A DNA stretch of 64,000 bases from Thermoplasmata archaeon (GTDB lineage: Archaea > Thermoplasmatota > Thermoplasmata > UBA10834), in contig JBFESP010000001.1 in NCBI GenBank assembly GCA_041548485.1, positions 72,835 through 136,834 on the forward strand, given 5' to 3'. The translations under genes were made by a program, and so were the position numbers. Under the pieces are notes generated by a model. The model saw only the letters and a program-made list of their open reading frames with translations. It did no database searches and was not told where the DNA came from. Below are positions 3,166-60,879 of the stretch, piece after piece (within the stretch, counting starts at the first letter, position 1; the number at the start of each line of letters is the position of its first letter).

Positions 3166-4380
3166 ATGCATCCAGCGAACCATCTGAGAGGCACCAAGGG
3201 AGACGAACTGAGAGACAGACGGGTCGTCCTCGGTGTGACGGGTAGCATCGCGGCCGTCGACACGGTCAGGCTCTGCAGGGAGCTGATCCGACACGGTGCC
3301 GAGGTGCATGTGGTCATGTCCAAGGAGGCACAGAAGATCATCCACCCAAACGCGTTCGAGTTCGCCTCTGGACTCCCTGTTACCACGGAGATCGACGGTA
3401 GAGTTCAACACGTGGCGCTCTGCGGTGATGTGCCCGACAGAGCCGACCTGCTCCTGATAGCCCCTTGTACCGCCAACACTCTGTCCAAAGTCGCCCTCGG
3501 AATCGACGACACCTCGGTCACGACCTTCGCCACGACCGCGCTGGGAAGCGACATACCCGTCATGGTCGTGCCAGCCATGCATGGGAGCATGATGAAGAAC
3601 TCCGCAGTGCTCGAGAACATCGAGCGACTGAAAGGCATGGGAGTGACGGTTCTCGAGTCCAGGATGGAGGAGTCGAAGGCCAAGATGCCGGACATCGGCC
3701 ACATCGTCTCCACCGTGATATCACACATCGGAAGAAGGGACCTCAAAGGATTGAGAGTCCTCGTGATCGCCGGAGCGACGGAGGAGCCCGTCGATAACAT
3801 CAGGGTGCTGACCAACAGGAGCTCCGGGGAGACTGGCATCGAGATTGCCAGGACGGCGTTTCACAGAGGAGCGGAAACGGAACTCTGGATAGGCAGGTCA
3901 GACGCCGCCGTTCCATCCCATATGACACTCAGACGATTCCGAACGACTCAGGACCTCCACGATATGGTCGTCGCTGAGGAACCGACATGGGACATCGTGC
4001 TCTTCCCCGCTGCCGTGTCGGACTACGCCCCTGAGAAGGCGGAGGGCAAGATATCGTCGTCCGAGCCACAGATAACACTGACCCTGACGAGGAACCCGAA
4101 GATCATCGACGACATCAGGGCGAAGGTCGTCGTCGGGTTCAAGGCTCAGTCGCAAGTGGACGACGACAGACTGGTCTCAGAGTCGGTGGCGCTGATAGAG
4201 CGGTCGAAATGTTCGTTCGTCGCGGCGAACCTCGTGGAAGATGTCTCCGCCGGAAAGACACGGGTGTTGCTCGTCGACAACAAAGGCGCCCCTGAGGAAC
4301 TCAGGGGCACGAAGGCGGAAGTGGCGGAGAAGATTCTCGACAGGGCCGCGAGGATGGTCAGGTCAACTACCCACGAATAG
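3166..4380 (+). CDS. coaBC: Bifunctional phosphopantothenoylcysteine decarboxylase / phosphopantothenate-cysteine ligase (CoaBC/Dfp)
   Basis: 404 aa. N-terminal flavoprotein domain (VVLGVTGSIAAVDTVRL...PCTANTLSKVALGIDD) followed by a CoaB domain. The C-terminal ...LLVDNKGAPEELRGTKAEVAEKILD fits the conserved Dfp C-terminus. Confidence 0.9.
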   Translation: MHPANHLRGTKGDELRDRRVVLGVTGSIAAVDTVRLCRELIRHGAEVHVVMSKEAQKIIHPNAFEFASGLPVTTEIDGRVQHVALCGDVPDRADLLLIAPCTANTLSKVALGIDDTSVTTFATTALGSDIPVMVVPAMHGSMMKNSAVLENIERLKGMGVTVLESRMEESKAKMPDIGHIVSTVISHIGRRDLKGLRVLVIAGATEEPVDNIRVLTNRSSGETGIEIARTAFHRGAETELWIGRSDAAVPSHMTLRRFRTTQDLHDMVVAEEPTWDIVLFPAAVSDYAPEKAEGKISSSEPQITLTLTRNPKIIDDIRAKVVVGFKAQSQVDDDRLVSESVALIERSKCSFVAANLVEDVSAGKTRVLLVDNKGAPEELRGTKAEVAEKILDRAARMVRSTTHE

Positions 4381-5497
4381 ATTCGTGGGCTTGTAACTGA
4401 GGTGGAACCGAATGTTCGGAAACAGAGCTCGCTACGATTGGTTGGTTGACGGACAACCTACCAGCCTCAGCTTTACCGAGGCTGGCGATGTTGCGTGCGG
4501 CATTGAGGTCGGCGTGGAGTTCGAAGGCGCAAGCCTTGCATCGGTAGACGAGCCCGGTCCGGTTGCTCTTGCGGATGTCACCACATCTGGAACATCTCTG
4601 GCTCGTATATCGGGCGTCGATATAGATGACGGCCTTGCCCTGTCCTTCGGCTTTGTACTCGATGAACCTCTGGAGTTGGCCGAAGGCCCAATCCCCGAGC
4701 TTCCTGTTGAAGCTCCGCCCGAGTCGTTTGTCTCTTCGGATCCCAAGCTTCTCCAATGCCACGGCGTCGAAAGGTTGGGACAATATCCAGTTAGCTATCT
4801 GGTGATTGACATCGGCCATGAAGCGTTTTTCCCGGCCCGAGAGTCGCTTGAGCTTCCTCTTGGCGGAGCGGGTGCCTTTGGCCTGAAGCCTCCGACGGAT
4901 ATGCTGATATTCGCCCTTGACCTTTCGAATGTGAGAGGATCTGTAGAATTTGTCGTTGGAGAGAACGGCATGGTTGAGTATGCCTGTATCGACCCCGATG
5001 ATGGTGTTGGGTGGCCTGACGGACGGCGTCCTCTCCTCGACCACGATGCCGAGGACGAGTTTGTGGCCATTGTAGGAGAGCTTGGCAGAAACGACCTTCC
5101 AATCCGTGTATTTCTTAAAGTAATCAGGAATTTTAGTTGGGACATTGACTCTCTTGTTGATACTCGCAAGGGTCACGAACCCCCTTCCGAGTTCGGGCGT
5201 GAATGTCCGTTGGTTGTATCTGATGGCCGACCATCTCCGTTTGAACGGCAATCTCCTGAGTTTAACCAGTTTCAGCATCTCGGAAGCATTGTCCCGGGCG
5301 GTCGTGACGATGGACGCGGGGATGTTCGGATATTTTTCTCGGATGGGGTAGTATGTGAGATGGTGGAGCTTGAGCTTATTGACAATCTTATTCTCGAACC
5401 CCGCCTTGAGAATGTCATTGGTGGCGAGATTGGTCATCTCGATGGTCTTGACCAGGCGGTCATCTGGCTCGATATGCAGAGTGATCGTCCGTTGCAC
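4367..5497 (-). CDS. tnpB: TnpB (OrfB), the RuvC-like RNA-guided nuclease of the IS200/IS605 family. No tnpA accompanies it, so it is an IS1341-type element.
   Basis: 376 aa with the RuvC-I motif IGVDTGI, RuvC-II motif AVALEKL, zinc finger CSRCG...CKAC and RuvC-III motif HADLNAARNIA. GC content is lower than that of the flanking genes. Confidence 0.9.
   Translation of the reverse strand: MQRTITLHIEPDDRLVKTIEMTNLATNDILKAGFENKIVNKLKLHHLTYYPIREKYPNIPASIVTTARDNASEMLKLVKLRRLPFKRRWSAIRYNQRTFTPELGRGFVTLASINKRVNVPTKIPDYFKKYTDWKVVSAKLSYNGHKLVLGIVVEERTPSVRPPNTIIGVDTGILNHAVLSNDKFYRSSHIRKVKGEYQHIRRRLQAKGTRSAKRKLKRLSGREKRFMADVNHQIANWILSQPFDAVALEKLGIRRDKRLGRSFNRKLGDWAFGQLQRFIEYKAEGQGKAVIYIDARYTSQRCSRCGDIRKSNRTGLVYRCKACAFELHADLNAARNIASLGKAEAGRLSVNQPIVASSVSEHSVPPQLQAHESIRG
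4381..4530 (-). ncRNA. Predicted omega RNA (right-end RNA) scaffold overlapping the 3' end of tnpB. The guide is expected from the adjacent coaBC 3' end.
   Basis: Position is inferred from the known architecture of TnpB systems. The sequence shows perfect hairpins at 4408-4419 (CCGAA-TG-TTCGG) and 4461-4485 (CCAGCCTC...GAGGCTGG). Confidence 0.3.
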
Positions 5498-5602
5498 ATA
5501 GGGTCATTCAGTTCTGATTATGTATATATGTAAAGAGAGGGATGGTGAAACTATTCTTACAATTCCTCCCACGATTGAAATCACGGGTTTCCTTGGAGGT
5601 AA

Positions 5603-6478
5603 TTGATGAAAACCAGGGCTTTCTGCCCGGGACACATCACAGGATTCTTCGAGATGTGCAGGACGGACAACCCAATGGCAAGCGGTTCAAGGGGTGGGGG
5701 GCTATGTACCTCGTTGGGCGCACTATCCGAGGTCAGCGTAGAGAGAGCCGATCGTCTCGAGATCGATGTCAACATCGACCGCGAGCCCAGAGAAGCCGAA
5801 GTCACCCGGGCCGCACTCGGGCACCTGCTCGGTGATGAGCAGCTTCATGTCAATGTGACAACTGAGCTCGACCTTCCGGAGAGCCAGGGCTTCGGTATGA
5901 GCGCAGCAGGGGCACTCTCCGCATGCGTCGCAGCCTCGCACACACTCGGAATCGCCCGCCAGAAGGCATTCGAGGCGGCGCACGTCGCGGAGATCGAATG
6001 TGGTACAGGGCTGGGAGACGTTTCGGCGATTCATCGCGCAGGCATCACGATACGCGAATCGCCAGGTCTCCCGCCGACCGGCAGGGTCCACCGCATCGAG
6101 GGAGCCCCGGAAGTCGTTCTCGCGGTTGTCGGACCGCCCATCAGAACCTCGGACATGCTCAGAGATATCGAGCTGACACGGCGTATCAACCGTTGTGGCG
6201 CAGAGAGGGTTCCTCAGCTGCTCGGCGAACCGACGGTGGACGACCTGATGCGATTGTCATCATCGTTCGCGCTGGAGACAGGCCTCGCGTCCGAACGGGT
6301 GATATCCGCCATGGACGCAGCATCCGTCGCCGGAGCTGCCAGCATGATCATGCTCGGCAATTCCGTTTTCGCAATAGGACGGACGGAGGAGCTGATCGAT
6401 ATTCTCAGCGCGTTCGGAGAGGTCCGATCGTGCGGTGTCGACGGTGCAGGCGCCAGGGTTCTGCCCAATCAGGCGTGA
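5603..6478 (+). CDS. GHMP-family kinase, probable archaeal pantoate kinase (CoA pathway)
   Basis: 291 aa. N-terminal AFCPGHITGFFE, GHMP motif PESQGFGMSAAGALSA. It is adjacent to coaBC, and a GGAGGT SD lies 5 nt upstream. Confidence 0.65.
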   Translation: MMKTRAFCPGHITGFFEMCRTDNPMASGSRGGGLCTSLGALSEVSVERADRLEIDVNIDREPREAEVTRAALGHLLGDEQLHVNVTTELDLPESQGFGMSAAGALSACVAASHTLGIARQKAFEAAHVAEIECGTGLGDVSAIHRAGITIRESPGLPPTGRVHRIEGAPEVVLAVVGPPIRTSDMLRDIELTRRINRCGAERVPQLLGEPTVDDLMRLSSSFALETGLASERVISAMDAASVAGAASMIMLGNSVFAIGRTEELIDILSAFGEVRSCGVDGAGARVLPNQA

Positions 6479-6492
6479 GAGTCGTCACACGA

Positions 6493-6795
6493 TCACTCGT
6501 ACAGAGTGAAGAGTCGGTCGTCACCGCCCACATCGAACAAGCCGATCCTCGCACCGCTGTCCAGCCACCCGTGCGCGTAGTTCACGCATGCGAACGCGTT
6601 CGCCAGACTGCCCTCCCGGGCGAACCCTTTCGCGTCCTCGAAGTACGACCTCGCCATGGTGAGAAAATCCTCAGCTAGTTTCCTGTTGAATGACCTGTCG
6701 GGTGCGGCGATCCGCAGCTTGGCCAGCGCATCTGATGTGAGCCGGATGTACTTCTCGACCCGTTCGATGGTTATCGTCTCTCCCTCGCCAGTCAT
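6493..6795 (-). CDS. Small alpha-helical archaeal protein, DUF357-like
   Basis: 100 aa from an internal ATG, 5 nt after the HerA-like stop. The motif FACVNYAHGWLDSGARIGLFDV resembles DUF357. The upstream part of the long ORF is a frame-shadow of the HerA-like gene. Confidence 0.45.
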   Translation of the reverse strand: MTGEGETITIERVEKYIRLTSDALAKLRIAAPDRSFNRKLAEDFLTMARSYFEDAKGFAREGSLANAFACVNYAHGWLDSGARIGLFDVGGDDRLFTLYE

Positions 6796-6800
6796 CGCTC

Positions 6801-8405
6801 CTACATCCTTCTGGACGGGATGATCTCCACGCTCTCGCCGCCGTGGAGCGACTCCCTGGGACGAATGTCGACGAAGAGCGGCATGGATACGCCGCCGCCG
6901 GTGATTATGGCGGTTCCGATAGGCAACCTCTGGATCTCGTCCTCCATTCCATCCGTCAATCCCTCGATCGACGCTGCGATCGCCTTGAGGTCGTTCGGGT
7001 TGTTCACCTTGAGTATGACCTGGGTGTTGCACTGGCTTAGCACGTTCTTGTCCACCTTCGCAGGCCTCTGGGATATCACCATGAGGCCCAGGCCGAACTT
7101 CCTGCCCTCGGACGCGATGGTCCTGAAGACCTTGGAGCACGCCACCTGCCCTTGTTGCGGACAGAAGTTGTGCGCCTCCTCGACGACCAGCATCAACGGA
7201 GGTATCTTGCCGACCTTCCGGAGCTCGAAGAGCGCGTTGCCTATCCTGTTGACTATGAGTTCCTGCATGTCGGGCGGTGTGCCTCTCAGGTTGATGATTG
7301 TCGCCTTGCCCTTCTTGATGAGCTCGTCGATCTTCGTCCCCTGCTCCGCGAAGACATCTATCTCGTTCAGGTACTCAAGCTCGCTTATAAGTATCCCGCT
7401 GGACTGCTCATCGTTGGCTTCGAGGACAGCTATGATGTCGGTTATCGAGAAGCTATCCTTCGTGTCCCGAAGGGCGTCGACCGCCTTCCTGAGCATAGTC
7501 AGGTACGATCTCACGTTCTTGATGTTCGTGAGACCTAGTATCTCCCTCGCATCGAGGTTGTGGAGCGTGAACTTCAGAGGTTTGGCATGCTTGTTCAGGT
7601 TAGTGTCCGTCGCGAACTCGGCAATCTTATCATCGTATCCCTTCGGCTTCACACCGAAGTCTCTGTTGGTCTTCTTGACAGTCCCTCGCTTCCGCATCGT
7701 CGAGTATTCGCCGTGAGGGTCTAGCACGCAAACGGTGACATTGTGCTTCATCAGCTCCTCTATGAGTGCGCCGGAACAGTACGATTTCCCGCCGCCGGTC
7801 TTGCTGAGGATGCACACGTGCTTCTGCACGAGCAGGTTGATGTCGAGCTCCACGCGGATATCGTGGCCTGCCAGGAGGCCGATATACGCGCCGGAATCGG
7901 TGTGCTCCTCGATGCCGACCACGCTTTTTATCAGGTCCTCCTGCGCGCGGAAGACGCTCTCACCGGCGCGCATCGGGGTCCTGGGAGCCTGGAGCAGATT
8001 TCGGTCATCCCGATATCCCACGACGGATACCGTCGCGATCTCCTTCTCCTCGATATCGATGGGGGTCCCGTGCTTCATCGACTGAACTCCGTCCGTCGTC
8101 AGGTTGGTGCGCCGCTCGATCTCCGACACCTGCCCAAGTACGAACCCGTGCAGGCCATGGCGCACCTGGACGAACTCCATCTTCTCCAGGGGAGCGGTCA
8201 CTACAATGTTGAACTTGAGCGTGCCGACGTTGCCGTATATCACACCCACCTGAGTGAGTCCGTGAGGGTCGGCGACCTTGTGCGCGCGGCGGGAGCGCGG
8301 CTTGTGAGCGTGCTCGTCGTGGGCCTCACCAACATCTTCGGGGAACGGAGCGTCGGTTTCGCCCGTTGATAGGTCCAACTGGTCAGTGCTCTCGTTCAAA
8401 TGCAT
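6801..8405 (-). CDS. HerA/FtsK-like DUF87 ATPase (HerA-like bipolar-helicase family)
   Basis: 534 aa. Walker A ILSKTGGGKSY, Walker B LMLVVEEAHNF, VISQRPAKVD motif, N-terminal barrel-like region. Confidence 0.75.
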   Translation of the reverse strand: MHLNESTDQLDLSTGETDAPFPEDVGEAHDEHAHKPRSRRAHKVADPHGLTQVGVIYGNVGTLKFNIVVTAPLEKMEFVQVRHGLHGFVLGQVSEIERRTNLTTDGVQSMKHGTPIDIEEKEIATVSVVGYRDDRNLLQAPRTPMRAGESVFRAQEDLIKSVVGIEEHTDSGAYIGLLAGHDIRVELDINLLVQKHVCILSKTGGGKSYCSGALIEELMKHNVTVCVLDPHGEYSTMRKRGTVKKTNRDFGVKPKGYDDKIAEFATDTNLNKHAKPLKFTLHNLDAREILGLTNIKNVRSYLTMLRKAVDALRDTKDSFSITDIIAVLEANDEQSSGILISELEYLNEIDVFAEQGTKIDELIKKGKATIINLRGTPPDMQELIVNRIGNALFELRKVGKIPPLMLVVEEAHNFCPQQGQVACSKVFRTIASEGRKFGLGLMVISQRPAKVDKNVLSQCNTQVILKVNNPNDLKAIAASIEGLTDGMEDEIQRLPIGTAIITGGGVSMPLFVDIRPRESLHGGESVEIIPSRRM

Positions 8406-8498
8406 CCCATCTCAATTTCCCAATATGACGATTTCTTCTATTAATGCTTTCGTGGAACTCTCGCACGGCCAACGGGGCGTCAAGTTATATGAGAAAGG

Positions 8499-27081: not shown

Positions 27082-28983
27082 ATGACGAAGACGGTCACGC
27101 GTTTCCAGCCCCTTGGACGGGGAACTAGCACACGAACGGGAGCTTCGCTCCTGGACCTCGCGAGGGAGGTCGACGTCTCCATCGAATCGATATGCGGCGG
27201 GACAGGGAAGTGCGGCAAGTGCAGGGTGGTGGTGGCCACGGGAGCCGGGCATCTCTCCCCCGTCAACGAGAGCGAGCGCGCAGCCCTGACAGCTGAGGAG
27301 GTCGATATGGGTGTGCGATTGGCGTGCCAGGCTAGAGTCGTCGCTGAGGGAGACATAGTCGCCGACATCCCGGAACTCAGCCGGAGGGGACATCACCGGC
27401 TCCTCGCTTCCGGGATAGAGCCAGAGGTGGAGCGTGCGCCGGCCGTGGGGAAGATACTCCTGAGGATCCCGCCGGCCACGTTGAGCGACATCAGAGCGGA
27501 CGACGACAGGTTGCTTGAACTACTGCATTCAGAGGCGGCGGTCACGGCGAACATCGCGCAGGGAGTGCACCAGCTTCTCCCCAAGGCAGTCAGGGAGAAC
27601 TCGTGGGAGGCTACCGTCACGCTCTTCAGGGGCGAGGAGTTGATCAGGATCGACCCGGGAGATACGACCGGGAACCTGCTCGGCGTCGCTGTCGACATCG
27701 GAACGACGAAGGTCGTGGCATACCTCGTGAACCTCATCACCGGCGAGATAATGGGAACGGAGAGCCAGCCCAACCCGCAGATACCCTTCGGCGAGGACGT
27801 GATGTCGCGGATAACCTACGCCTCCAGTAGCAGCGACGGCCTCAGGGAGCTCGGAGAGGCCGTGGTGGGATCAGTCAACTCGCTCATCGCAAGGCTGTGC
27901 GCAGGTGCCGGGAGGGACCCGACGGACGTCCTCGAGGTCGTCGTCGTCGGCAACACGGCCATGCATCACATATTCTTCGGAATCACTCCTCAGCACCTCG
28001 CTCAGGCGCCGTATGCGCCAGCGGTCAGAAGCTCCTTGACCGTTGACCCAGGCCATTCCGGCCTGGACATATATCCGTTCGGTAAGGTGAGCTCGTTGCC
28101 GAACATAGCCGGCTTCGTCGGCGCTGATGCGGTGGCAGTCCTGATCGCCTCTGGCCTTTACCAGGACGAGGAGATCGGCATGATGATAGACATCGGTACC
28201 AACACGGAGATCATCGCGGGCAACCGTGAGAGGCTGATCGCGTGCTCGTGCGCCTCGGGACCCGCGTTCGAGGGGGCTCACATCAAACACGGCATGAGGG
28301 CGGCCTCTGGGGCGATCGAGAGGATATGGATAGATTCTGACACTCATGATGTCCATCTCAGGACGGTGGATGACGCCCCCGCGCGTGGCATCTGTGGCTC
28401 AGGAATCGTTGATGCCGTATCTGAGATGTTCAAGTGCGGCCTCCTCTCTGACTCGGGCAGAATGCTTCCGTCCGATATGGGTGATCGGTTCAGAGAAGGC
28501 GCAGACGGGAAGGCGGAGTTCATCCTCACGTCCGAAGAGGACACTGAGGCGGGAACCGAGATCACGATAACACAGAATGACATACAGGAAATACAGCTGG
28601 CGAAGGCCGCTATATTCACCGGAGTATCGGCGCTCATGAGGAAGCTCGGTCTCTCTTGCTCAGGTCTGAAGCAGGTCTACGCGGCGGGCGCTTTCGGGAC
28701 GTATGTCGACGCGACGAGCGCGATAACCATCGGCATGTACCCCGACATCCCCCCTGAACGCATAAGATTCGTCGGCAACGCAGCAGGCTCGGGCGCGAGG
28801 ATGGCGCTCAAGTCGACCAAGGTCAGAGACCTCGCGGACCACCTGTCGAGGCGCGTCGAGTACATCGAACTGGCGGTCGAAAAGGACTTCCAGACAGAGT
28901 TCGCGAAGGCCATGTTCCTCCCGCATAGGGAATCCTGGCGGTTCCCCAGCGTCACGCGACACGGCTCGATCGCACCCCGATGA
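27082..28983 (+). CDS. RACo-like reductive activator: N-terminal plant-type 2Fe-2S ferredoxin domain fused to an ASKHA (DUF4445) ATPase domain
   Basis: 633 aa. CGGTGKCGKCRV 2Fe-2S motif; ASKHA phosphate loops (VAVDIGTTKV, IDIGTNTEI). Confidence 0.7.
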   Translation: MTKTVTRFQPLGRGTSTRTGASLLDLAREVDVSIESICGGTGKCGKCRVVVATGAGHLSPVNESERAALTAEEVDMGVRLACQARVVAEGDIVADIPELSRRGHHRLLASGIEPEVERAPAVGKILLRIPPATLSDIRADDDRLLELLHSEAAVTANIAQGVHQLLPKAVRENSWEATVTLFRGEELIRIDPGDTTGNLLGVAVDIGTTKVVAYLVNLITGEIMGTESQPNPQIPFGEDVMSRITYASSSSDGLRELGEAVVGSVNSLIARLCAGAGRDPTDVLEVVVVGNTAMHHIFFGITPQHLAQAPYAPAVRSSLTVDPGHSGLDIYPFGKVSSLPNIAGFVGADAVAVLIASGLYQDEEIGMMIDIGTNTEIIAGNRERLIACSCASGPAFEGAHIKHGMRAASGAIERIWIDSDTHDVHLRTVDDAPARGICGSGIVDAVSEMFKCGLLSDSGRMLPSDMGDRFREGADGKAEFILTSEEDTEAGTEITITQNDIQEIQLAKAAIFTGVSALMRKLGLSCSGLKQVYAAGAFGTYVDATSAITIGMYPDIPPERIRFVGNAAGSGARMALKSTKVRDLADHLSRRVEYIELAVEKDFQTEFAKAMFLPHRESWRFPSVTRHGSIAPR

Positions 28984-42440: not shown

Positions 42441-44390
42441 ATGTCGCAGGATGGCTTTCCGTACCGCCTCAGGCGAGGACAGGACAGGCTCATCGACCTC
42501 GTTCGCTCGGCGTGTGAGTGTCGAGGCCATCTTGTTGTCGAGAGCGGGACGGGTACTGGAAAGACCGTGTGCTCACTGCACGGCGCCCTGGACGTGTGTC
42601 GCCGTCGGGGGAAGAAGCTGCTCTATCTGACACGCACGAACTCTCAGCAGCGTCAGGTCATGCACGAGCTGCGTGGCATCAAGGGTCCCCGGAAGCACTT
42701 CGGCATTGCCCTCCAGGGAAGGAGGAGCATGTGTCCCCTGGCGAAGGTCGACCCCGAGCTGGCCGACGGCAACCCCGAGGAACTCTCGAAGGTATGCGGT
42801 GAGAGGAAGGCCAGGGTCATACGCGGAGAGGAGGGGGCGTGCGTGTACTTCGCGTCGGTCATGTCGCAAGACATGCAGGAGGTGACGAAGCATCTCAGGA
42901 GGGAGCTTCCTACCGCGGAGGAATTCGCGGATTACTGTCAGGAACGGACCCTCTGCCCGTACGAGGCGACGAAGATGCACATCCCCGCGGCGGACATGGT
43001 CGCGGCGCCGTACATCATGTTCTTCGATGGATTCATAAGACACACGCTCCTCGATTGGATGGGGTGCTCCCTGAGTGATGTCGCCCTGATCGTGGACGAG
43101 GCGCACAACCTGCCGGCGTACGCTCGTGAGCTGAAGTCCTCCAGACTCTCCGAGGTCACCCTGAGGCTGGCAGAGAGCGAGATCGATGAGTTCGGTGACC
43201 CAGAGGTGGCGGATGGAACGAGCATGAGCGACCTGGTCGGCCTTCTCGGCAACTCGCTGGAACGGGCAGTGGAGGAGTATCTCATCGACGAGGACGGAAT
43301 CATCCCTCAGTCCTTCCTGGAGGAGGAACTGATGTTCGGAACCCGTCAGACCAGTACGAAGCTGAATGGTGTCTTCTCCCAGCTGAGCAACTACGGTGAG
43401 ATGGTACGAGACGCCCGTAAGGGTGCTGGGAGGCTACCGAGGTCGTACATACACAGGATGGCGGGTTTCCTCACTCTCTGGCACACCCTGGAGGAGGGGG
43501 AGTACGTCAAGCTGGTGGTGAAATCCGACACGAGCGCATTCGAGGCATACTGCCTCGATGCGTCGATTGCCTGCAAGCCCGTGCTCGAGTGTCACTCCAG
43601 CGTACACATGTCGGGCACTTTGAGGCCGCTTGACGACTATGTCCTGTCCTTGGGACTTCCGAGGGATTCCGTGCGGGTGGAGATCGAGTCGCCTTTCCCC
43701 CCGCATAACAGGAGGATAATCTTCGTCGACGACGTCACGACCAGACACGAAGACCTGGAACGGGACCCCGCCATCGTCAATCGGATCGCAGACCACATTT
43801 CATCGATCGTATCGGCCTGCAGGAGGAACACGATCGTGTTCTACCCGTCGTACGCAACCATGCACAGAGTCAGCGCTCTCGTGGACGCCGCCGAGGGGAT
43901 TCAGGTCTACATGGAGGAGCGTTCGATGGGGCAGGGAGACCTCGCGGACACCGTCCAGCAGTTCAGATCCGCACGGGGGGATGCGGTGATGCACGCCGTC
44001 TCTGGCGGACGGATCAGCGAGGGTATCGATTTCCCCGGCGACGAGATGGAGTTGGCGATAATCGTGGGGATACCTTACCCGAAACCCACATCCCGCCAAC
44101 GCGCGCTCCAGTACTTCTGCGAGATCAAGTTCGGAGACGGCTGGGCACATGCCGTCAAGGCGCCCACTGCCAGGAAGCTGCTCCAGGCCGTAGGCAGGTT
44201 GATACGGTCGGATACGGACAGAGGCATGGCCGTCGTGCTGGACAGAAGGGCGGCACAGTTCGAGGACGTGTTGAGCGCCTCGAGGTGCGACCGGCCCGCG
44301 GGCGCCGTGCTCGACTTCTTCTCTCAAGAGTCGACGGAGGGCCACACCTCATCGGGGGCGTGCGAGAGGCTGCGTCCCGGACGTGGATGA
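42441..44390 (+). CDS. xpd: XPD/Rad3-family 5'-3' DNA helicase with an FeS domain
   Basis: 649 aa. Walker A ESGTGTGKT, four FeS Cys (CPLAK...C...C...C), DEAH box IVDEAHNL, C-terminal helicase motifs. Confidence 0.85.
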   Translation: MSQDGFPYRLRRGQDRLIDLVRSACECRGHLVVESGTGTGKTVCSLHGALDVCRRRGKKLLYLTRTNSQQRQVMHELRGIKGPRKHFGIALQGRRSMCPLAKVDPELADGNPEELSKVCGERKARVIRGEEGACVYFASVMSQDMQEVTKHLRRELPTAEEFADYCQERTLCPYEATKMHIPAADMVAAPYIMFFDGFIRHTLLDWMGCSLSDVALIVDEAHNLPAYARELKSSRLSEVTLRLAESEIDEFGDPEVADGTSMSDLVGLLGNSLERAVEEYLIDEDGIIPQSFLEEELMFGTRQTSTKLNGVFSQLSNYGEMVRDARKGAGRLPRSYIHRMAGFLTLWHTLEEGEYVKLVVKSDTSAFEAYCLDASIACKPVLECHSSVHMSGTLRPLDDYVLSLGLPRDSVRVEIESPFPPHNRRIIFVDDVTTRHEDLERDPAIVNRIADHISSIVSACRRNTIVFYPSYATMHRVSALVDAAEGIQVYMEERSMGQGDLADTVQQFRSARGDAVMHAVSGGRISEGIDFPGDEMELAIIVGIPYPKPTSRQRALQYFCEIKFGDGWAHAVKAPTARKLLQAVGRLIRSDTDRGMAVVLDRRAAQFEDVLSASRCDRPAGAVLDFFSQESTEGHTSSGACERLRPGRG

Positions 44391-45048: not shown

Positions 45049-45549
45049 ATGCTCAGGCGGATGTTGATGGACCTCAAAGTCGTGGAGACTGGTGACTTCG
45101 TCCTCGCCTCCGGGAAGAGGAGCAGCTACTTCGTGAACATCAAGAGGGCGAGCACGGACCCAATCGTTCTGAGAGAGATCGCCAAGGTGATGGCGCCGCA
45201 CATCGAAGACAACAAGATAGCCGGTATGGCACTCGGAGCGGTCCCTCTCGCCGTGGCGGTCGCCCTGGAAACTGGACGGCCGTACGTGATAGTGCGCAAG
45301 GAAGCGAAGGACCACGGGACGAAGGAGCTCGTCGAGGGCGAAGTGCGTGAAGGGGACGAGTTCGTGGTAGTCGAAGACGTCGCCACAACGGGCGGGTCCA
45401 CGATGAGGGTCGTCCGCGCATTGAGGGAGAAGGGAGCCGCGGTCTCCAAGGCCGTCGTCGTCGTTGACAGGGAGGAGGGCGCTTCCTCCGTCCTTTCCAG
45501 CAACGGTGTCGAGCTGATATCACTCTTCAGAGCCAAGGACCTAACATGA
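45049..45549 (+). CDS. pyrE: Type-I phosphoribosyltransferase, orotate phosphoribosyltransferase-like
   Basis: 166 aa. PRPP-binding motif FVVVEDVATTGGS. Confidence 0.6.
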   Translation: MLRRMLMDLKVVETGDFVLASGKRSSYFVNIKRASTDPIVLREIAKVMAPHIEDNKIAGMALGAVPLAVAVALETGRPYVIVRKEAKDHGTKELVEGEVREGDEFVVVEDVATTGGSTMRVVRALREKGAAVSKAVVVVDREEGASSVLSSNGVELISLFRAKDLT

Positions 45550-46100
45550 CATCACATGGGTACACGCTGACGGACTGCAGGAAATGCCGTCTATGGACCG
45601 GGAGGGCCAACATAGTGAACGGGACAGGACCGCGCGGCGCCAGGGTAGTCTTCGTGGGCGAGGCCCCCGGCCGTGACGAGGACCTCTCGGGCGAGCCGTT
45701 CGTCGGAAGTGCTGGTAGGATACTGAACGAGGCACTCGAGGAGGCGGGTGTTGACAGGGGGGAGGTCTACATAACGAATCTCGTGCGGTGCAGACCCCCC
45801 GGGAACAGGAGACCGAGACGGGACGAGCTCCACGCGTGCTCCGAGCACCTGAGCCGTGAGCTGGCGCCAATGAACCCCGTGGTCATATGCGCGATGGGGC
45901 AGACGGTCGCCCGCAGCCTCTTCGAGACCTCGGAGAACATGGCTGATGTAGCTGGCAAGGAGATCCCCCTGGAGATGGGTGCAAGGAGATTTCGAGGGAT
46001 GATTGCGTACCACCCGGCCGCGTGCCTATATCGCAGGGCCAATCTGGATTCGTTCAGGTCGACAGTGAGGGAGAGCCTCAGAATGGCTGGGATGGTGTGA
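45546..46100 (+). CDS. udg: Uracil-DNA glycosylase, family 4 (FeS-containing)
   Basis: 184 aa. N-terminal Cys cluster (CRKCRLW), GEAPG motif (VGEAPGRDED), F-x-G-x-AG. Confidence 0.8.
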   Translation: MTSHGYTLTDCRKCRLWTGRANIVNGTGPRGARVVFVGEAPGRDEDLSGEPFVGSAGRILNEALEEAGVDRGEVYITNLVRCRPPGNRRPRRDELHACSEHLSRELAPMNPVVICAMGQTVARSLFETSENMADVAGKEIPLEMGARRFRGMIAYHPAACLYRRANLDSFRSTVRESLRMAGMV

Positions 46101-55829: not shown

Positions 55830-58800
55830 ATGCACCTAAAGGAGATCGAGCTTGAGAACTTCAAGTCATTTGCCAGAAAGACGAAGATACCCCTGCTGGA
55901 GGGATACACCGCGGTCACGGGCCCGAACGGGGCGGGCAAGTCGAACATTGCCGATGCCATACTCTTCGTCCTCGGACCGAAGAGCTCGAGGGTGATACGA
56001 GCGGGGAGGCTCACTGACCTGATCTTCAATGGGGGGAAGGAGAAGAGACCTGCGAGGGAGTGCAAGGTCAGCCTCCACTTCGACAACTCCGATAGGCTCA
56101 TCCCGATCGATTCCGACGTTGTCAAGCTCACAAGGCTCGTAAGGCTCTCGGACGCCGCGGAGGGATACTACTCGTACTTCTACGTCAACGAACGGAAGTC
56201 TTCCCTCGGCGAGTTCGACAGCCTCCTAGCCAACGCTCGCATCAGCGCGGATGGATACAACTTCGTCCAGCAGGGGGACATCACGAGGATCGTCGAGATG
56301 ACCAACCTGGAGAGGCGGAGGATTCTCGACGGCATCGCGGGCATAACGAAGTTCGATGAGGACATCCAGTCGGCCGAGAGGGAGCGTTCGAGCGCAGAGG
56401 AGAACATCAACAGGCTATCCATAATCCGAGATGAGGTCAAGAAGCAGATGAAGCAGCTTGAGAACGACCGCGAGGGCGCGCTGAAATACAAGGACCTCCA
56501 CGACACGCTCTCGACGGCGAAGGCGTCCCTCGCTGTGAAGAAGCTGGAAGGGATAGAACGGGAGATGGCATCGTACAAGGGGCAGGTCACGACATACACT
56601 CAGGAGAACGCAAAGGCCGAGGAGAGGGAGAAGGAACTCCAGAAGACGCTCGAGGAGGCCTCCACGGAGCTGATGGACGTGGAGAACGAGATCGACGAGA
56701 GAGGCGGCGAGGAGGCCAGAGAAATGAAGGAGAAGATCGACAGCCTGCGGATCGAAATCGCGCGCGCGAAGGACGCGTGCACTAGCTCCGTGGACATGGT
56801 CGAATCGCTCAAGGAGACACGCAAGGCACACGTCGAGGACCTCAAGGCGGTGAGGGAGGATCTCACCTCCCTCGAACAGCGGTTGGAGCCTCTCAAGAAG
56901 GAGTATGAGGAGAAGACCAAGATGCTCGCCGAATGCAGAGGCGAGCTGGAGGGGCATCAGGATGAGCTCTCCAAATCTGACACCGAGCTGAACGCCCTTC
57001 AGAAGGAAGTCCTCGAACTGGGGGTGGACATCGGATCCAAGGAGGAGAAGATCCACGCCCTTAGACTCGAGGAGGACAGGCTGAACGAGCGACTCTCCCG
57101 GGCCAAGATGGACATAGCCAACTTGGAGGAGACGAAGAAGACCTACGAGTTCGAGCTGAAGGATTCAGAGTGGTCGATCAAGGAGCTGAAGAGCGAGACC
57201 AAGACCTCCTCGATGGGACTGAAGAAGGCACAGGAGGAGTACTACGCGCAGAGAAACAGGGAGAAGAAGCTCCTCGGGCAGGCGCAGGATCTCGAGAACG
57301 CGGTGAAATCGCTCACTAGGGAGTACAACCAGCTCAAGGCGGAGGCGGAGGCTGCCGACATGGTCCGGAAGGGCTACAACTCCGCCACAATGTCGCTCCT
57401 GGAGGCGCGCGACAAGGGTCAGATGAAGGGCATACACGGCACAGTGGCCGAGCTGGCGGACGTGCATGACGATTACGGGACGGCGCTCAACGTCGCTGCG
57501 GGGAACCGGATGCAATCGATAGTGGTTGACACGGACCAGGTCGCCTCGGATTGCATAAACTACCTCAAGAAGAACAAACTCGGAAGAGCCACATTCCTTC
57601 CACTCAACAAGATGCTGGACGGAAGGCCGCGCGGGAAGGCGACGATGGCATCCAAGAGCTCGCTCGGGTTCGCCATAGACCTCATCAGGTTCGACGAGAA
57701 GTATCGAGCGGCGTTCTGGTTCGTCTTCGGGGACACCGTCGTCGTCAAGAACCTGACGGAGGCGCGGAAGCTGATGGGAGGCGTGAGGATCGTCACGCTC
57801 GATGGAGAGTTGGCGGAGGCCAGCGGCGCGATGGTCGGTGGGACGCTCAACTCCAAGCTCGTGAAGTTCGGCGCACCATCCGAGAGCAGGATAGAGAAGA
57901 AGGCCACCGAACTCCGAGAGGCGACCGAGCAATCTGAGAGGGTTCAGGCCGAGCTGGCAGAGCTTCGCTCGACCCTGCCGGACCTGGAGGGCAGGATCAG
58001 GGACTCGACCACGAAGGACAGTGGAGAGAGCGTAAGGATGAGCTCGCTCGAAGTCAAGAGGAAGGAGTTCCAGCAGAAGCTCGACTCCGTCGAGAAGGAG
58101 ATAGGGACCAAGAACAAGGAACTCTCCGATTGCCTCGACCTCATCGAGAGGATCAAGCAGGACATAGCGCGCCTCCAGGAGGAGCTGGAGAAGGTGCGCG
58201 ATACCAAGAACGCGAAGGACAGCAAGCTCATGGAGGTCACGCCCAAGGAGCTATCGCAGAGGCTCAAGCAGGTCGAGAAGCAGATTCTGGAACTCTCGAA
58301 CGAAACCGCGCACCTCAACTCGGACGTTCAGACACTGACGAAGCAGATCGAGCTGGTCGGCGCCAGAGGCAGGGAGATAGAGGAATCCGTCGAGGGAGTC
58401 GACAGCCGTGTGAAGGAGCTCAAAGCCAAGGGCAAGGAGAGTGCGAAAGACCATGTGAAGTACGAAACCGAGCTCAAAGCCCTGCTTGGCATTGAACGCT
58501 CCATGGGTGACAAGCTCAACACTCTGAGGAGCAAGAGAGACACCCTTTACAGGAAGAAGACAGAGACCGAAGCCTCGATAGAGAAGACCCAGACCAAGAT
58601 CCAGACGAACGGCGATTTCATCCTCAGCCTGCAGACGAAGCTCGGCGAGACCGAGGGGAGGTTGAAAGAGGCAGAGGTGGATGTCGCACAGTATTCATCC
58701 ACGAAACTACCTGAGTCGTTGCCTCCGACGGACGAGATTAGGAGGACTGTGGCTGAGTGCGAGAGACGCATGACATCACTCGGGGCGGTCAACCTCAAGG

Positions 58801-59438
58801 CGATCGACGAGTACGAGGACAAGAAATCGAGATTCGACGAGATCAAGACAGAGGTCGCCCAGCTGACGAAGCAGAAGACCAACCTCATCAAGCTGGTCGA
58901 CGAGATCAACACCAAGAAGAAGATAGGGTTCCAGAGGATATTCGTGGGGATAAGCGACAACTTCAAGAAGATCTTCGCTGAACTCTCCGGGGGTGGGGAG
59001 GCGGAACTACTCCTGGAGAACGAGGAGGACCCATTGTCTGGTGGACTGATAATCAAGGCACGGCCCAAGGACAAGAAGTTCGTCAGGATGGAGGCGCTCT
59101 CCGGAGGAGAGAAGAGCATGACGGCCCTCTCGTTCATATTCGCCATACAGGTGTACGAGCCGTCGCCGTTCTACCTCCTCGACGAGGTCGACATGTTCCT
59201 CGACGGGGTGAACGCAGAGCACGTGTCGAAGGCAGTGAGGAGGAGCTCGAGGAACGCGCAGTTCATCCAGATATCCCTTAGGAAGGTGACATTGAACGAG
59301 GCGGACCACATCATCGGGGTGACGATGCAGCGAGAGGGCGTCTCGGATGTGATCATGAAGCCGAACGTCGGCGCGGAGGTCGACATAGAGCAAACCCCGG
59401 AGGGACATGTGCCCGGGGAACCGCAGGAGGCTGCGTAA
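55830..59438 (+). CDS. smc: Chromosome segregation protein SMC
   Basis: 1202 aa. N-terminal Walker A GPNGAGKSN, long coiled coils, hinge, C-terminal LSGGEKS signature and Walker B LLDEVD. Confidence 0.9.
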   Translation: MHLKEIELENFKSFARKTKIPLLEGYTAVTGPNGAGKSNIADAILFVLGPKSSRVIRAGRLTDLIFNGGKEKRPARECKVSLHFDNSDRLIPIDSDVVKLTRLVRLSDAAEGYYSYFYVNERKSSLGEFDSLLANARISADGYNFVQQGDITRIVEMTNLERRRILDGIAGITKFDEDIQSAERERSSAEENINRLSIIRDEVKKQMKQLENDREGALKYKDLHDTLSTAKASLAVKKLEGIEREMASYKGQVTTYTQENAKAEEREKELQKTLEEASTELMDVENEIDERGGEEAREMKEKIDSLRIEIARAKDACTSSVDMVESLKETRKAHVEDLKAVREDLTSLEQRLEPLKKEYEEKTKMLAECRGELEGHQDELSKSDTELNALQKEVLELGVDIGSKEEKIHALRLEEDRLNERLSRAKMDIANLEETKKTYEFELKDSEWSIKELKSETKTSSMGLKKAQEEYYAQRNREKKLLGQAQDLENAVKSLTREYNQLKAEAEAADMVRKGYNSATMSLLEARDKGQMKGIHGTVAELADVHDDYGTALNVAAGNRMQSIVVDTDQVASDCINYLKKNKLGRATFLPLNKMLDGRPRGKATMASKSSLGFAIDLIRFDEKYRAAFWFVFGDTVVVKNLTEARKLMGGVRIVTLDGELAEASGAMVGGTLNSKLVKFGAPSESRIEKKATELREATEQSERVQAELAELRSTLPDLEGRIRDSTTKDSGESVRMSSLEVKRKEFQQKLDSVEKEIGTKNKELSDCLDLIERIKQDIARLQEELEKVRDTKNAKDSKLMEVTPKELSQRLKQVEKQILELSNETAHLNSDVQTLTKQIELVGARGREIEESVEGVDSRVKELKAKGKESAKDHVKYETELKALLGIERSMGDKLNTLRSKRDTLYRKKTETEASIEKTQTKIQTNGDFILSLQTKLGETEGRLKEAEVDVAQYSSTKLPESLPPTDEIRRTVAECERRMTSLGAVNLKAIDEYEDKKSRFDEIKTEVAQLTKQKTNLIKLVDEINTKKKIGFQRIFVGISDNFKKIFAELSGGGEAELLLENEEDPLSGGLIIKARPKDKKFVRMEALSGGEKSMTALSFIFAIQVYEPSPFYLLDEVDMFLDGVNAEHVSKAVRRSSRNAQFIQISLRKVTLNEADHIIGVTMQREGVSDVIMKPNVGAEVDIEQTPEGHVPGEPQEAA

Positions 59439-59440
59439 CC

Positions 59441-60367
59441 ATGAGGACCACGGAGACGGACTTCGGAAACGTCATCAACCACCTGATGTACCAGAAAGCG
59501 ATAATCGACGACGACGAGGACGTGCAGACCAAGATCGGCAGATACGTCAGGATCGCCGAGGAGATGCAGACCGGCGCGCTCGTACCGTCTGACGACCCGT
59601 TCGAGAGATGCGTGGCGCAGACTTTCGAGCTGGTCGTCCAGCAGCAGTTCAACCCCTGGGACATCAACCTAATTGAGTTCTCGAAGATGTATCTGGCGAA
59701 GGTCAGGAAGGCGTCGGAGGTCAACCTGATCGTCGCAGGGAAGATCGTGTACATGGCATGGGAGATCCTCAAGCTTCAGAGCGTGGACGCTGTGAGGAGG
59801 GCCGGAAGGCCGGAGACGTGCGAGCTGGTGTTCGATGGTTTCGACACGGAGGGATTCGACCTCTTCGCCGACCCGTTCGACCTCAGCGGAGGGGAGGCCC
59901 TCCTCTACACGGAGGAGTTGCCGATCAGGGAGAAGATACGGAGGAGTTCTGAGCGGCCTGTGACCCTGATAGACCTCCTTGATGCGTTCGAGGAGGCGAA
60001 GGAGGAGTCGGACATAAGGACGGAGCTGGCCAAGTTCATGCAGAAGTACCGACGGCCGGACTTCGACGATAAGTCACACAAGGAGTGCCTCGAGGACGAC
60101 ATAGCGGCCATCTGGGAGCGCGTACAGGTGTTCGGGAGCGGCCCGGTTCCTATGGCGGACCTCTGCATCAATGGCAGAGAGGACAGGATCAAGGTGTTCG
60201 TCGCGATGCTGTTCCTTGCGAAGATGGGCAAGGTGCACGTATGGCAGGAGAAGCCTCCGTACGGCGAGATCTTCCTTGAGGTCATGGTCCCGTGGGACAT
60301 CGCCCAACTCGAGGACGCACCGACCATCCAGAACGTCGAGGTAGAGAAGGTACCGGTGGTCAAGTGA
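59441..60367 (+). CDS. scpA: Segregation and condensation protein A (kleisin)
   Basis: 308 aa, located directly after smc. ScpA-like N- and C-terminal winged-helix regions. Confidence 0.8.
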   Translation: MRTTETDFGNVINHLMYQKAIIDDDEDVQTKIGRYVRIAEEMQTGALVPSDDPFERCVAQTFELVVQQQFNPWDINLIEFSKMYLAKVRKASEVNLIVAGKIVYMAWEILKLQSVDAVRRAGRPETCELVFDGFDTEGFDLFADPFDLSGGEALLYTEELPIREKIRRSSERPVTLIDLLDAFEEAKEESDIRTELAKFMQKYRRPDFDDKSHKECLEDDIAAIWERVQVFGSGPVPMADLCINGREDRIKVFVAMLFLAKMGKVHVWQEKPPYGEIFLEVMVPWDIAQLEDAPTIQNVEVEKVPVVK

Positions 60368-60879
60368 AGAGCGAGAGAGTCGTTGAGGCCGCGCTCTTCT
60401 CTGCGGCGGAGCCGGTGACGGTCTCCGACCTGAGACTCGCATCGGAGTTGGATGTGAGGACGATACGGTCGGCTTTGAAGAACCTCATGGAAGAGTACAA
60501 CTCCTCGGATCGCGCGATCGAGATCGCGAAGATGGGCCCCAGGTATGCGATGCAGGTGAAAGGGGAGTACTCATCGCCCGCCGCGAAGCTGGCCGCGCTG
60601 AAGATACCGAAGGACTTGCTGAAGACTGCGTCGCTGATCGCCTACTACCAGCCGGTCCTGCAGAGCAAGCTCGCAGACCTCCTCGGGGGCAAGATATACA
60701 CGCACGTCCGCACCCTCGAGGAGCTCGGACTCATCAGGAAGAGACCGAAGAAGAACAGCATCGAGCTCACGACCACGAAGAAATTCATCGAGACCTTCGG
60801 AATAGACGCCCGTTCGAGGGGTGAAGTCAAGGCTTGGATAGAGGGAGAGCTGTCCAGGAAGAACGGCAGGAAGCAGTAG
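60364..60879 (+). CDS. scpB: Segregation and condensation protein B, with a GTG start overlapping the scpA stop
   Basis: ERVVEAALFSAAEPVTVSDL... is a ScpB N-terminus; two wHTH domains. Confidence 0.75.
   Translation: MKSERVVEAALFSAAEPVTVSDLRLASELDVRTIRSALKNLMEEYNSSDRAIEIAKMGPRYAMQVKGEYSSPAAKLAALKIPKDLLKTASLIAYYQPVLQSKLADLLGGKIYTHVRTLEELGLIRKRPKKNSIELTTTKKFIETFGIDARSRGEVKAWIEGELSRKNGRKQ

What the first reader, a model, noticed from the sequence alone, without database searches (positions are those of the whole stretch)
6493..8405. Orphan HerA-like DUF87 ATPase tightly coupled to a 100-aa DUF357-like protein, without NurA/Mre11/Rad50
The 534-aa ATPase has HerA/FtsK-type Walker A (KTGGGKS) and Walker B (VVEEAH) motifs and the QRP motif, but an unusual acidic, His-rich N-terminal 50 aa. 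It is not in the canonical herA-mre11-rad50-nurA operon. Instead a small helical protein with the motif YAHGWLDSGARIGLFDV begins 5 nt after its stop. Two-gene HerA-family modules with small partners are a recurring theme in recently described defence systems. This pair sits next to a mobile element (TnpB).
Basis: partly seen in the sequence, partly recalled or inferred. Interest (0 to 1): 0.55.

Follow-up and report, generated by a model that had tools for sequence, protein, structure and literature searches.

The report
Conserved archaeal HerA-like ATPase–DUF357 operon
The HerA-type ring ATPase and the small DUF357 protein are real and form a tightly coupled gene pair, but it is a slowly evolving, vertically inherited chromosomal operon of Thermoplasmata archaea set among housekeeping genes, not a mobile anti-virus system.

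Summary
A 534-aa DUF87/HerA-family ATPase (6801-8405, minus strand) is followed after 5 nt by a 100-aa DUF357 protein (6493-6795).

The defence and mobile-element reading is not supported:
- In 80 species-level Thermoplasmata genomes the ATPase lies directly upstream of DUF357 in 57. The usual block is ProRS<-Prs<-|->ATPase->DUF357|<-PoK<-CoaBC<-Tmk.
- The ATPase evolves as slowly as prolyl-tRNA synthetase (median identity 63% vs 66%). Its divergence tracks ProRS (r = 0.96), which indicates vertical inheritance.
- It has no relatives on viral contigs and only distant ones (33% identity or less) on plasmids.
- Its closest solved relatives are the canonical HerA proteins of Thermococcus and Sulfolobus, ahead of all anti-phage HerAs.
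- DUF357 is a near-universal archaeal core protein (463 of 524 genomes). It persists without the ATPase in 16 of the 80 Thermoplasmata loci (many labelled Methanomethylophilaceae) and in five loci outside that clade, three labelled DPANN (two Woesearchaeota, one Nanoarchaeota).
- The TnpB element is a species-specific 1.24-kb insertion one gene away.

The pair does stay adjacent in at least four different neighbourhoods, so it is a true operon in this class. That gives a weak functional lead for DUF357. Whether a NurA is encoded elsewhere in the genome could not be tested.

The parts
8406..8498 (-). 93-nt divergent intergenic region between the ATPase and the PRPP synthetase gene. It probably holds the operon promoter. 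An A/T-rich TATA-like element ATTAATA lies at 8439-8445, about 37 nt before the ATG.
   Evidence: Read directly from the sequence. The promoter assignment is inference only. No archaeal promoter tool was available.
6801..8405 (-). HerA-family (DUF87) ATPase, 534 aa, stop codon included.
   Evidence: Pfam DUF87 1e-31 and HerA_C. Best PDB sequence hits are TkHerA 9x1l (1.7e-36) and SsoHerA 4d2i (3.8e-33). Foldseek gives full-length matches to the same two proteins (about 5e-27). Orthologues are 49-97% identical in 60 species loci.
8268..8405 (-). N-terminal extension (aa 1-46): acidic, His-rich, low complexity, lineage-specific and probably disordered.
   Evidence: Not alignable among orthologues and missing in P0184 and in the L086 lineage. 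pLDDT is 25-29.
7941..8258 (-). HAS-barrel-like beta domain (about aa 50-155), including the invariant IYGNVGT motif (8220-8240).
   Evidence: The AF2 model shows beta strands at residues 52-153. Pfam PF09378 (HAS barrel) is precomputed for many orthologues. Foldseek alignments to HerA span the full length.
6861..7850 (-). RecA-like ATPase core with a helical-bundle insert (about aa 296-350). Walker A is at 7782-7805, Walker B at 7170-7196, and the Q446-R447 motif at 7050-7073.
6796..6800 (-). 5-nt spacer GAGCG. Together with the stop codon it reads TAGGAGCG-ATG, a GGAG Shine-Dalgarno-like motif that suggests translational coupling.
   Evidence: In other species the spacing is typically -4 to +6 nt.
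6493..6795 (-). DUF357 (arCOG01224) protein, 100 aa, a three-helix bundle, stop codon included.

Best explanation
This is a vertically inherited chromosomal housekeeping operon of Methanomassiliicoccales-type Thermoplasmata. The first gene encodes a HerA-family ATPase with a HAS barrel, a RecA-like core and a helical bundle. By homology it should form a hexameric ring that pumps double-stranded DNA through its channel using ATP. Its most likely role is processing the cell's own chromosome (end resection for recombinational repair, or a related DNA-translocation task), with any nuclease partner encoded elsewhere. The second gene encodes the pan-archaeal three-helix-bundle protein DUF357. It is co-transcribed and probably translationally coupled with the ATPase in this class. 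Its core function does not depend on the ATPase, because DUF357 is kept, equally conserved, in lineages that lack the ATPase. Shown: family membership, operon conservation, vertical slow evolution, and absence from mobile elements. Inferred: hexamer formation, DNA translocation, a repair role, and co-transcription.
For: The closest solved relatives by sequence are the T. kodakarensis HerA of the HerA-NurA complex (129 bits) and S. solfataricus HerA (118 bits), against 91 bits or less for anti-phage HerAs (identity of 9X1L from PMC12977600). Foldseek gives the same order (5e-27 vs 1e-20 or weaker). NCBIfam ranks DSB-repair HerA models (169 and 136 bits) above anti-phage HerA (112 and 91) and CedD (96.5). 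In 80 species-representative genomes, 57 have the ATPase directly upstream of DUF357 and 4 more have a 0.6-1.4 kb insert between them. The usual setting is the block ProRS-Prs|ATPase-DUF357|PoK-CoaBC-Tmk-GcvPB. Median identity to the window is 62.7% for the ATPase, 65.7% for ProRS and 64.4% for GcvPB, against 46-50% for PoK, CoaBC, Tmk and Prs. ATPase and ProRS identities correlate with r = 0.96. The pair stays adjacent in other neighbourhoods: L086, L089 and L090 behind a Na/Ca exchanger with a 4-nt overlap (54% and 52% identity), and L070, L071 and L031. There are no relatives on viral contigs and plasmid hits are 33% identical or less. DUF357 is arCOG01224, present in 463 of 524 archaeal genomes (PMC6393860), and is one of the 76 archaeal common marker genes.
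Against: No NurA, Mre11 or Rad50 is nearby, and their presence elsewhere in the genome was not testable. The ATPase is far below the NCBIfam equivalog cutoffs for DSB-repair HerA (169 vs 970; 136 vs 800). It is only about 22-24% identical to TkHerA and SsoHerA. It could therefore be a paralogue with another role. The ATPase is dispensable in 16 of the 80 loci, many labelled Methanomethylophilaceae. Retention of adjacency through several rearrangements, with overlapping or near-overlapping stop and start codons, argues for more than passive co-transcription and favours a direct functional link with DUF357. The AF2 model of the ATPase is only moderate (mean pLDDT 67).
Confidence: 0.6

Rival explanations
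1. The pair forms a two-component machine. DUF357 is a lineage-specific accessory subunit (adaptor, regulator or cap) that binds the HerA-like hexamer in Thermoplasmata, possibly in place of or in addition to NurA. The operon would then reveal the process in which the pan-archaeal DUF357 protein acts.
For: The genes are tightly spaced (5 nt here, -4 to +6 nt in most species). Adjacency is retained in 57-61 of 77 informative species and in at least four different genomic contexts. DUF357 has a conserved polar patch (Y51, D54 and Y73 invariant; Y16 and D79 nearly so) on a small helical bundle, which fits a binding module.
Against: DUF357 occurs in about 88% of archaeal genomes, and the published linkages are to DUF555 and a cytidylyltransferase, not to HerA. 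It is not next to a DUF87 gene in five loci outside the clade. It is retained with unchanged conservation (61-68% identity) in the 16 loci that lack the ATPase. No DUF87-DUF357 fusions appear among the 150 best family representatives. No complex prediction could be run.
Confidence: 0.2
2. The ATPase is a HerA-family paralogue with a role outside repair, such as chromosome segregation or dimer resolution (FtsK-like) or DNA uptake or export. DUF357 is simply co-transcribed with it.
For: It does not reach any NCBIfam equivalog cutoff. There is no adjacent nuclease. Sequence distance to the characterised HerAs is large. It is dispensable in the loci that lack it, many labelled Methanomethylophilaceae.
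Against: There are no membrane, pilus or Ced-like partners in the conserved neighbourhood. CedD and conjugative ATPase models score lower than HerA models. The full HerA architecture, including the HAS barrel, is present.
Confidence: 0.15
3. One reading: a two-gene HerA-based anti-virus or anti-plasmid defence module associated with a mobile element.
For: HerA-family ATPases with small or effector partners are known in defence (PDB Sir2-HerA and DUF4297-HerA). PADLOC HerA models hit the ATPase (best 8.4e-53). A TnpB gene lies about 1 kb away.
Against: DUF357 has no PADLOC hit. No effector domain (Sir2, nuclease and the like) is adjacent. The ATPase shows vertical, slow evolution in a class-wide housekeeping block. 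It has no relatives on viral contigs and only relatives of 33% identity or less on plasmids. It is closer to housekeeping HerA than to anti-phage HerA. TnpB is a single-species insertion at the CoaBC/PoK junction and is absent from 80 other species. DUF357 is a universal core gene.
Confidence: 0.03

Closest known systems
Archaeal HerA of the HerA-NurA end-resection machinery (T. kodakarensis, PDB 9X1L-9X1P; S. solfataricus, PDB 4D2I)
   Same: The architecture is the same: HAS barrel, RecA-like core with Walker A and B and a QR motif, and a helical-bundle insert. These are the best sequence and structure matches in the PDB. Like them, the gene is chromosomal and conserved.
   Different: Identity is only about 22-24%, far below the NCBIfam equivalog cutoffs. 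No nurA, mre11 or rad50 is adjacent. Instead the gene is coupled to DUF357. It carries a lineage-specific disordered N-terminal extension.
Bacterial anti-phage HerA systems (Sir2-HerA/Nezha, DUF4297-HerA; PDB 8WLD, 8J4U, 8ZIQ, 9C1M)
   Same: They are two-gene modules with a HerA-family hexameric ATPase, and the fold is the same.
   Different: In those systems the partner is an effector enzyme (Sir2 NADase or a nuclease). Here it is a 100-aa helical bundle that is a universal archaeal core protein. Distribution here is vertical and syntenic rather than patchy or island-borne. Similarity is lower than to housekeeping HerA.
DUF357 / arCOG01224 (AF_1782, PDB 2OO2; PDB 2PMR; TK1195)
   Different: The published genomic linkages are to DUF555 and a TagD-like cytidylyltransferase. 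Linkage to a HerA-like ATPase was seen here only in Thermoplasmata. It is not mentioned in the papers that could be searched.

Membership tests
HerA family (FtsK-HerA superfamily, COG0433/DUF87) | P-loop RecA-like core with Walker A, Walker B and a conserved Q-R (arginine finger region) | tested here: met
   Pfam DUF87 1e-31. SKTGGGKS, VVEEAH and SQRP are present and invariant in 31 orthologues.
HerA family (FtsK-HerA superfamily, COG0433/DUF87) | N-terminal HAS-barrel domain | tested here: met
   The model shows a beta-rich domain at aa 52-153. PF09378 is annotated on many orthologues. Foldseek gives full-length alignments to HerA structures. PF09378 did not reach the 0.1 E-value reporting limit for the window protein itself.
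HerA family (FtsK-HerA superfamily, COG0433/DUF87) | Helical-bundle insertion in the ATPase domain | tested here: met
   Helices 298-315, 321-331 and 334-349 have pLDDT of about 80-88.
HerA family (FtsK-HerA superfamily, COG0433/DUF87) | Hexameric ring that translocates dsDNA | not testable with these tools
   No multimer prediction or biochemistry was available. This is inferred from homology.
DSB-repair HerA (HerA-NurA-Mre11-Rad50 system) | Equivalog-level similarity to characterised HerA (NCBIfam NF040819, NF040937) | tested here: not met
   169 bits against a cutoff of 970, and 136 against 800. These are nevertheless the top-ranked models.
DSB-repair HerA (HerA-NurA-Mre11-Rad50 system) | NurA nuclease partner, adjacent or elsewhere in the genome | tested here: inconclusive
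   NurA is not adjacent in any of 80 or more loci. It is not among the 30 window ORFs scanned. The rest of the genome could not be searched.
Anti-phage HerA systems (Sir2-HerA, DUF4297-HerA, PADLOC/NCBIfam HerA_antiphage) | Adjacent effector (Sir2, DUF4297 or another nuclease) | tested here: not met
   The neighbours are DUF357, PRPP synthetase and pantoate kinase. DUF357 has no PADLOC hit.
Anti-phage HerA systems (Sir2-HerA, DUF4297-HerA, PADLOC/NCBIfam HerA_antiphage) | Model score above the curated cutoff | tested here: not met
   NF042943 scores 112 against 800 and NF042944 scores 90.6 against 850.
Anti-phage HerA systems (Sir2-HerA, DUF4297-HerA, PADLOC/NCBIfam HerA_antiphage) | Patchy, horizontally mobile distribution in variable islands | tested here: not met
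   Synteny is conserved and the ATPase co-diverges with ProRS at r = 0.96. No viral relatives and only distant plasmid relatives were found.
DUF357 (PF04010, arCOG01224) | Pfam gathering threshold and the three-helix-bundle fold of 2OO2/2PMR | tested here: met

The most novel reading that the evidence does not exclude
DUF357 is one of the most widespread archaeal proteins with no known function. The most novel reading is that it is a physical cofactor of HerA-type DNA translocases. The Thermoplasmata operon would then expose this link, perhaps as a NurA-independent HerA-DUF357 DNA-processing module, and would give the first functional assignment for arCOG01224.
Probability: 0.15. Interest if true: 0.6.

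Novelty: new member of a known kind. Interest (0 to 1): 0.25.

Why it matters
As a defence candidate it does not matter, because the evidence points to ordinary housekeeping. Its residual value lies in DUF357 (arCOG01224), which is listed among the top-priority uncharacterised pan-archaeal proteins. A class-wide, rearrangement-resistant operon with a HerA-family DNA translocase is a testable guilt-by-association clue that DUF357 may act in DNA metabolism. The finding also documents a conserved NurA-unlinked HerA orthologue group in mesophilic Thermoplasmata and its absence from 16 of the 80 species loci, many labelled Methanomethylophilaceae.

Tried and rejected
- A genome scan with a 35-sequence DUF357 alignment failed because no conserved stretch was long enough. 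It was rerun with 9 sequences sharing NYAHGWLD. That biased the 80 loci towards Thermoplasmata.
- To look outside the class, a profile search with divergent DUF357 proteins was followed by 9 context look-ups on its hits. Five loci outside the clade lacked the ATPase. The sample is small and drawn mostly from DPANN.
- Literature searches for NurA/HerA distribution in Thermoplasmata or Methanomassiliicoccales found nothing usable. The two key 2004 papers are not held.
- A search for domain fusions found none with DUF87. There was only a sporadic GNAT fusion and probable frame-fusion artefacts.
- PADLOC gave no system-level support.
- Viral-contig and plasmid searches for close relatives of the ATPase were negative.

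Full report
**1. Observation**

The minus strand of the window carries a 534-aa ORF at 6801-8405 and, 5 nt after its TAG stop, a 100-aa ORF at 6493-6795.
- The large protein matches Pfam DUF87 'Helicase HerA, central domain' (E 1e-31) and HerA_C. The small one matches DUF357 (E 3.5e-28).
- Walker A (SKTGGGKS, aa 201-208), Walker B (VVEEAH within aa 404-412) and the SQRP motif (aa 445-448) are present. They are invariant among 31 orthologues.
- The acidic, His-rich first ~50 residues exist (11 Asp/Glu and 6 His). They are not conserved: orthologues differ freely there and some lack the segment. The model is disordered over residues 1-46. This is a lineage-specific low-complexity extension, not a functional signature.
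- The spacer reads TAG-GAGCG-ATG, which gives a GGAG motif just before the second start codon. That is compatible with translational coupling.

**2. Surroundings**

The neighbourhood is housekeeping throughout:
- glycine dehydrogenase subunits;
- an AsnC-type small protein;
- thymidylate kinase;
- CoaBC;
- TnpB;
- a GHMP-kinase-type pantoate-kinase-like gene;
- the pair itself;
- PRPP synthetase (divergent) and prolyl-tRNA synthetase;
- a class-III aminotransferase, ferredoxins and an aldehyde:ferredoxin oxidoreductase.

Thirty window ORFs scanned with Pfam gave no NurA, Mre11 or Rad50. The 1202-aa ORF at 55830-59438 is SMC with a hinge domain and is followed by ScpB.

**3. Related genomes**

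A scan of one genome per species recovered 597 DUF357 loci. The 80 best are all Thermoplasmata, Methanomassiliicoccales and relatives. I called ORFs in these loci and searched them with an HMM of the ATPase and by BLAST against the window's neighbours.
- The ATPase lies directly upstream of DUF357 on the same strand (60 nt or less, typically -4 to +6) in 57 loci.
- In 4 loci a 0.6-1.4 kb insert separates them, encoding a small membrane protein.
- In 16 loci the ATPase is absent from the whole ~14-kb locus. Three loci end at a contig edge.
- The usual arrangement across the class is ProRS<-Prs<-|->ATPase->DUF357|<-PoK<-CoaBC<-Tmk...GcvPB.
- In the ATPase-less loci, many labelled Methanomethylophilaceae or Methanoplasma, the order is Prs<-|->DUF357|<-PoK. 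The ATPase was therefore cleanly lost while DUF357 stayed. DUF357 conservation is unchanged there (61-68% identity to the window protein).

**4. Evolutionary mode**

| Protein | Median identity to the window orthologue |
|---|---|
| ATPase | 62.7% |
| ProRS | 65.7% |
| GcvPB | 64.4% |
| Prs | 50.4% |
| CoaBC | 48.4% |
| Tmk | 46.3% |
| PoK | 45.9% |

- ATPase identity correlates with ProRS identity at r = 0.96 (n = 36). This is the signature of a strongly constrained, vertically inherited gene, not of a defence gene.
- No relative was found on viral contigs. The best plasmid hits are haloarchaeal and Aquifex DUF87 proteins at 33% identity or less.
- Comparison with the closest TnpB-free relative (L005) shows that window 4362-5604 is a 1243-bp insertion exactly at the CoaBC/PoK junction. 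TnpB is found only in this species (L001-L004) and in none of the other 80 species. The mobile-element association is therefore coincidental.

**5. Is the pair more than inherited synteny?**

Yes, within this class.
- A different Thermoplasmata lineage (L086, L089, L090) keeps a 484-aa DUF87 ATPase overlapping DUF357 by 4 nt. It sits in a different neighbourhood (Na/Ca exchanger upstream, Trm5 downstream). The two proteins are 54% and 52% identical to the window proteins, and the ATPase lacks the N-terminal extension.
- L070, L071 and L031 also keep the pair with one or both flanks changed.

So the adjacency has survived several rearrangements, as expected for a real operon.

Outside the class the link disappears.
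- In two Woesearchaeota loci, one Nanoarchaeota locus and two further loci, DUF357 sits after the exosome genes Rrp4-Rrp41-Rrp42, near Cbf5/L31e/S19e, or elsewhere. None of the five has a DUF87 neighbour.
- The literature lists DUF357 (arCOG01224, TK1195) in 463 of 524 archaeal genomes, 'tightly linked' to DUF555 and a TagD-type cytidylyltransferase. It is flagged there as a top-priority unknown (PMC6393860). It is also one of the 76 archaeal common genes used for phylogenomics (PMC12680538).
- No DUF87-DUF357 fusion exists among the 150 best family representatives.

**6. What the proteins are**

The ATPase:
- By sequence it is closest to the T. kodakarensis HerA of the HerA-NurA complex (9X1L; 129 bits) and to S. 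solfataricus HerA (4D2I; 118 bits). Every anti-phage HerA scores 91 bits or less (9X1L identified in PMC12977600).
- Foldseek with the AF2 model (mean pLDDT 67, core 70-90) gives the same ranking: about 5e-27 for the two archaeal HerAs against 1e-20 or weaker for Sir2-HerA and DUF4297-HerA. The alignments are full length.
- NCBIfam ranks the DSB-repair HerA models first (169 and 136 bits), then anti-phage HerA (112, 91) and CedD (96.5). None reaches its equivalog cutoff of 600-970 bits.
- PADLOC hits only generic HerA models, and gives nothing for DUF357.

It is therefore a bona fide HerA-family member nearest to housekeeping archaeal HerA. Orthology to the end-resection enzyme is not proven.

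DUF357:
- Y51, D54 and Y73 are invariant, and Y16 and D79 nearly so, across divergent members. This suggests a conserved binding surface.

**7. Mechanism and rivals**

My best explanation (confidence 0.6) is a housekeeping operon.
- A HerA-type hexameric dsDNA translocase acts on the cell's own DNA in recombinational repair, end processing or a related task. Any nuclease partner is encoded elsewhere.
- It is co-transcribed with the independently functioning core protein DUF357.
- Shown: family membership, operon conservation, vertical slow evolution, and independence of DUF357 from the ATPase.
- Inferred: hexamer formation, DNA pumping, a repair role, and a single transcript.

Rivals:
- A true HerA-DUF357 complex (0.2). 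Tight coupling and rearrangement-resistant adjacency support it. The pan-archaeal, HerA-independent distribution of DUF357 weakens it.
- A HerA paralogue with a role outside repair (0.15).
- A defence module (0.03). This is contradicted by almost every test above.

**8. Limits**

- The rest of the genome could not be searched, so 'NurA elsewhere' remains open.
- The survey outside Thermoplasmata covers five loci plus one review.
- No multimer prediction was possible.
- The promoter assignment (TATA-like ATTAATA at 8439-8445) comes from reading the sequence only.

**9. Verdict**

The feature is real and correctly described, but it is ordinary in kind. It is a conserved chromosomal HerA-family ATPase gene with the core gene DUF357 attached, not an orphan defence system next to a mobile element. 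Its only notable aspect is the class-wide operonic link, which offers a weak and testable lead on the function of DUF357.

Noticed in passing
window 4362-5604: A 1243-bp IS (solo TnpB, OrfB_IS605/Cas12f1-like_TNB, gene 4367-5497 on the minus strand) is inserted exactly at the junction where CoaBC and the pantoate-kinase-like gene overlap in the closest relatives. The last ~19 nt of CoaBC now come from the IS, and the kinase gene is cut off from its upstream operon. The insertion is specific to this species.
   Followed up: partly
L001 9263-10384 (= window 4412-5533, plus strand): In NCBI assembly GCA_041545865.1 the gene called at the TnpB locus is the 373-aa antisense ORF with no Pfam hit. 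Other assemblies of the same sequence call the 376-aa TnpB. This is probably an annotation error caused by a long antisense ORF in GC-rich DNA.
   Followed up: partly
L005-L084, downstream of DUF357: The pantoate-kinase-like gene was detected in 70 of the 80 loci. Where present, it usually lies immediately downstream of DUF357 and convergent with it, with 3' ends often overlapping by about 17 nt, followed by CoaBC and Tmk. This neighbourhood is more widely retained than the ATPase-DUF357 link. Tail-to-tail orientation argues against co-transcription, but the persistent proximity of DUF357 to CoA-biosynthesis genes is unexplained.
   Followed up: no
L054, L056, L077, L082 (between ATPase and DUF357); L034 6421-7104: A ~180-250-aa membrane protein (N-terminus MD[LV]FSH[IVA]LW...; only a weak Zn_dep_PLPC hit, E 0.002) is inserted on the same strand between the ATPase and DUF357 in four species. 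In L034, which lacks the ATPase, it precedes DUF357.
   Followed up: partly
L068 (CAVHHN010000002.1) and L080 (CAVGRR010000002.1): Contigs deposited under bacterial names (Faecalibacterium sp. CAG:74, Eggerthellaceae bacterium) carry the archaeal ProRS-Prs-DUF357-PoK-CoaBC-Tmk block typical of Methanomethylophilaceae. They are probably mis-binned archaeal contigs.
   Followed up: no
protein representatives P0241-P0388: Many DUF357 family representatives are ~190-aa proteins with two tandem DUF357 domains. One (P0258) is fused to a GNAT acetyltransferase domain.
   Followed up: partly
L085 407-5288; L092 579-4294: In a Woesearchaeota locus and one further locus of unnamed lineage, DUF357 follows the exosome superoperon genes (SBDS, Rrp4, Rrp41, Rrp42, with Rpb6 in one case) on the same strand. 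This hints at an information-processing context for DUF357 in those lineages.
   Followed up: no
L091 (ENA contig_109441): The same synteny block appears with ProRS, Prs, CoaBC and the ATPase split into fragments. This looks like frameshift errors of a long-read assembly rather than real pseudogenes.
   Followed up: no
window 55830-60879; 42441-44390; 45546-46100; 27082-28983: Other chromosome-maintenance and lifestyle genes lie in the window: SMC (with hinge) followed by a 308-aa ORF with no Pfam hit and then ScpB; an XPD/Rad3-type helicase; a uracil-DNA glycosylase; and a RACo-type corrinoid reductive activase.
   Followed up: partly
literature (PMC4247193): In T. kodakarensis the DUF357 gene TK1195 lies just downstream of sRk28, an RNA described as preQ1-riboswitch-like. 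TK1195 is reported to have its own promoter.
   Followed up: no
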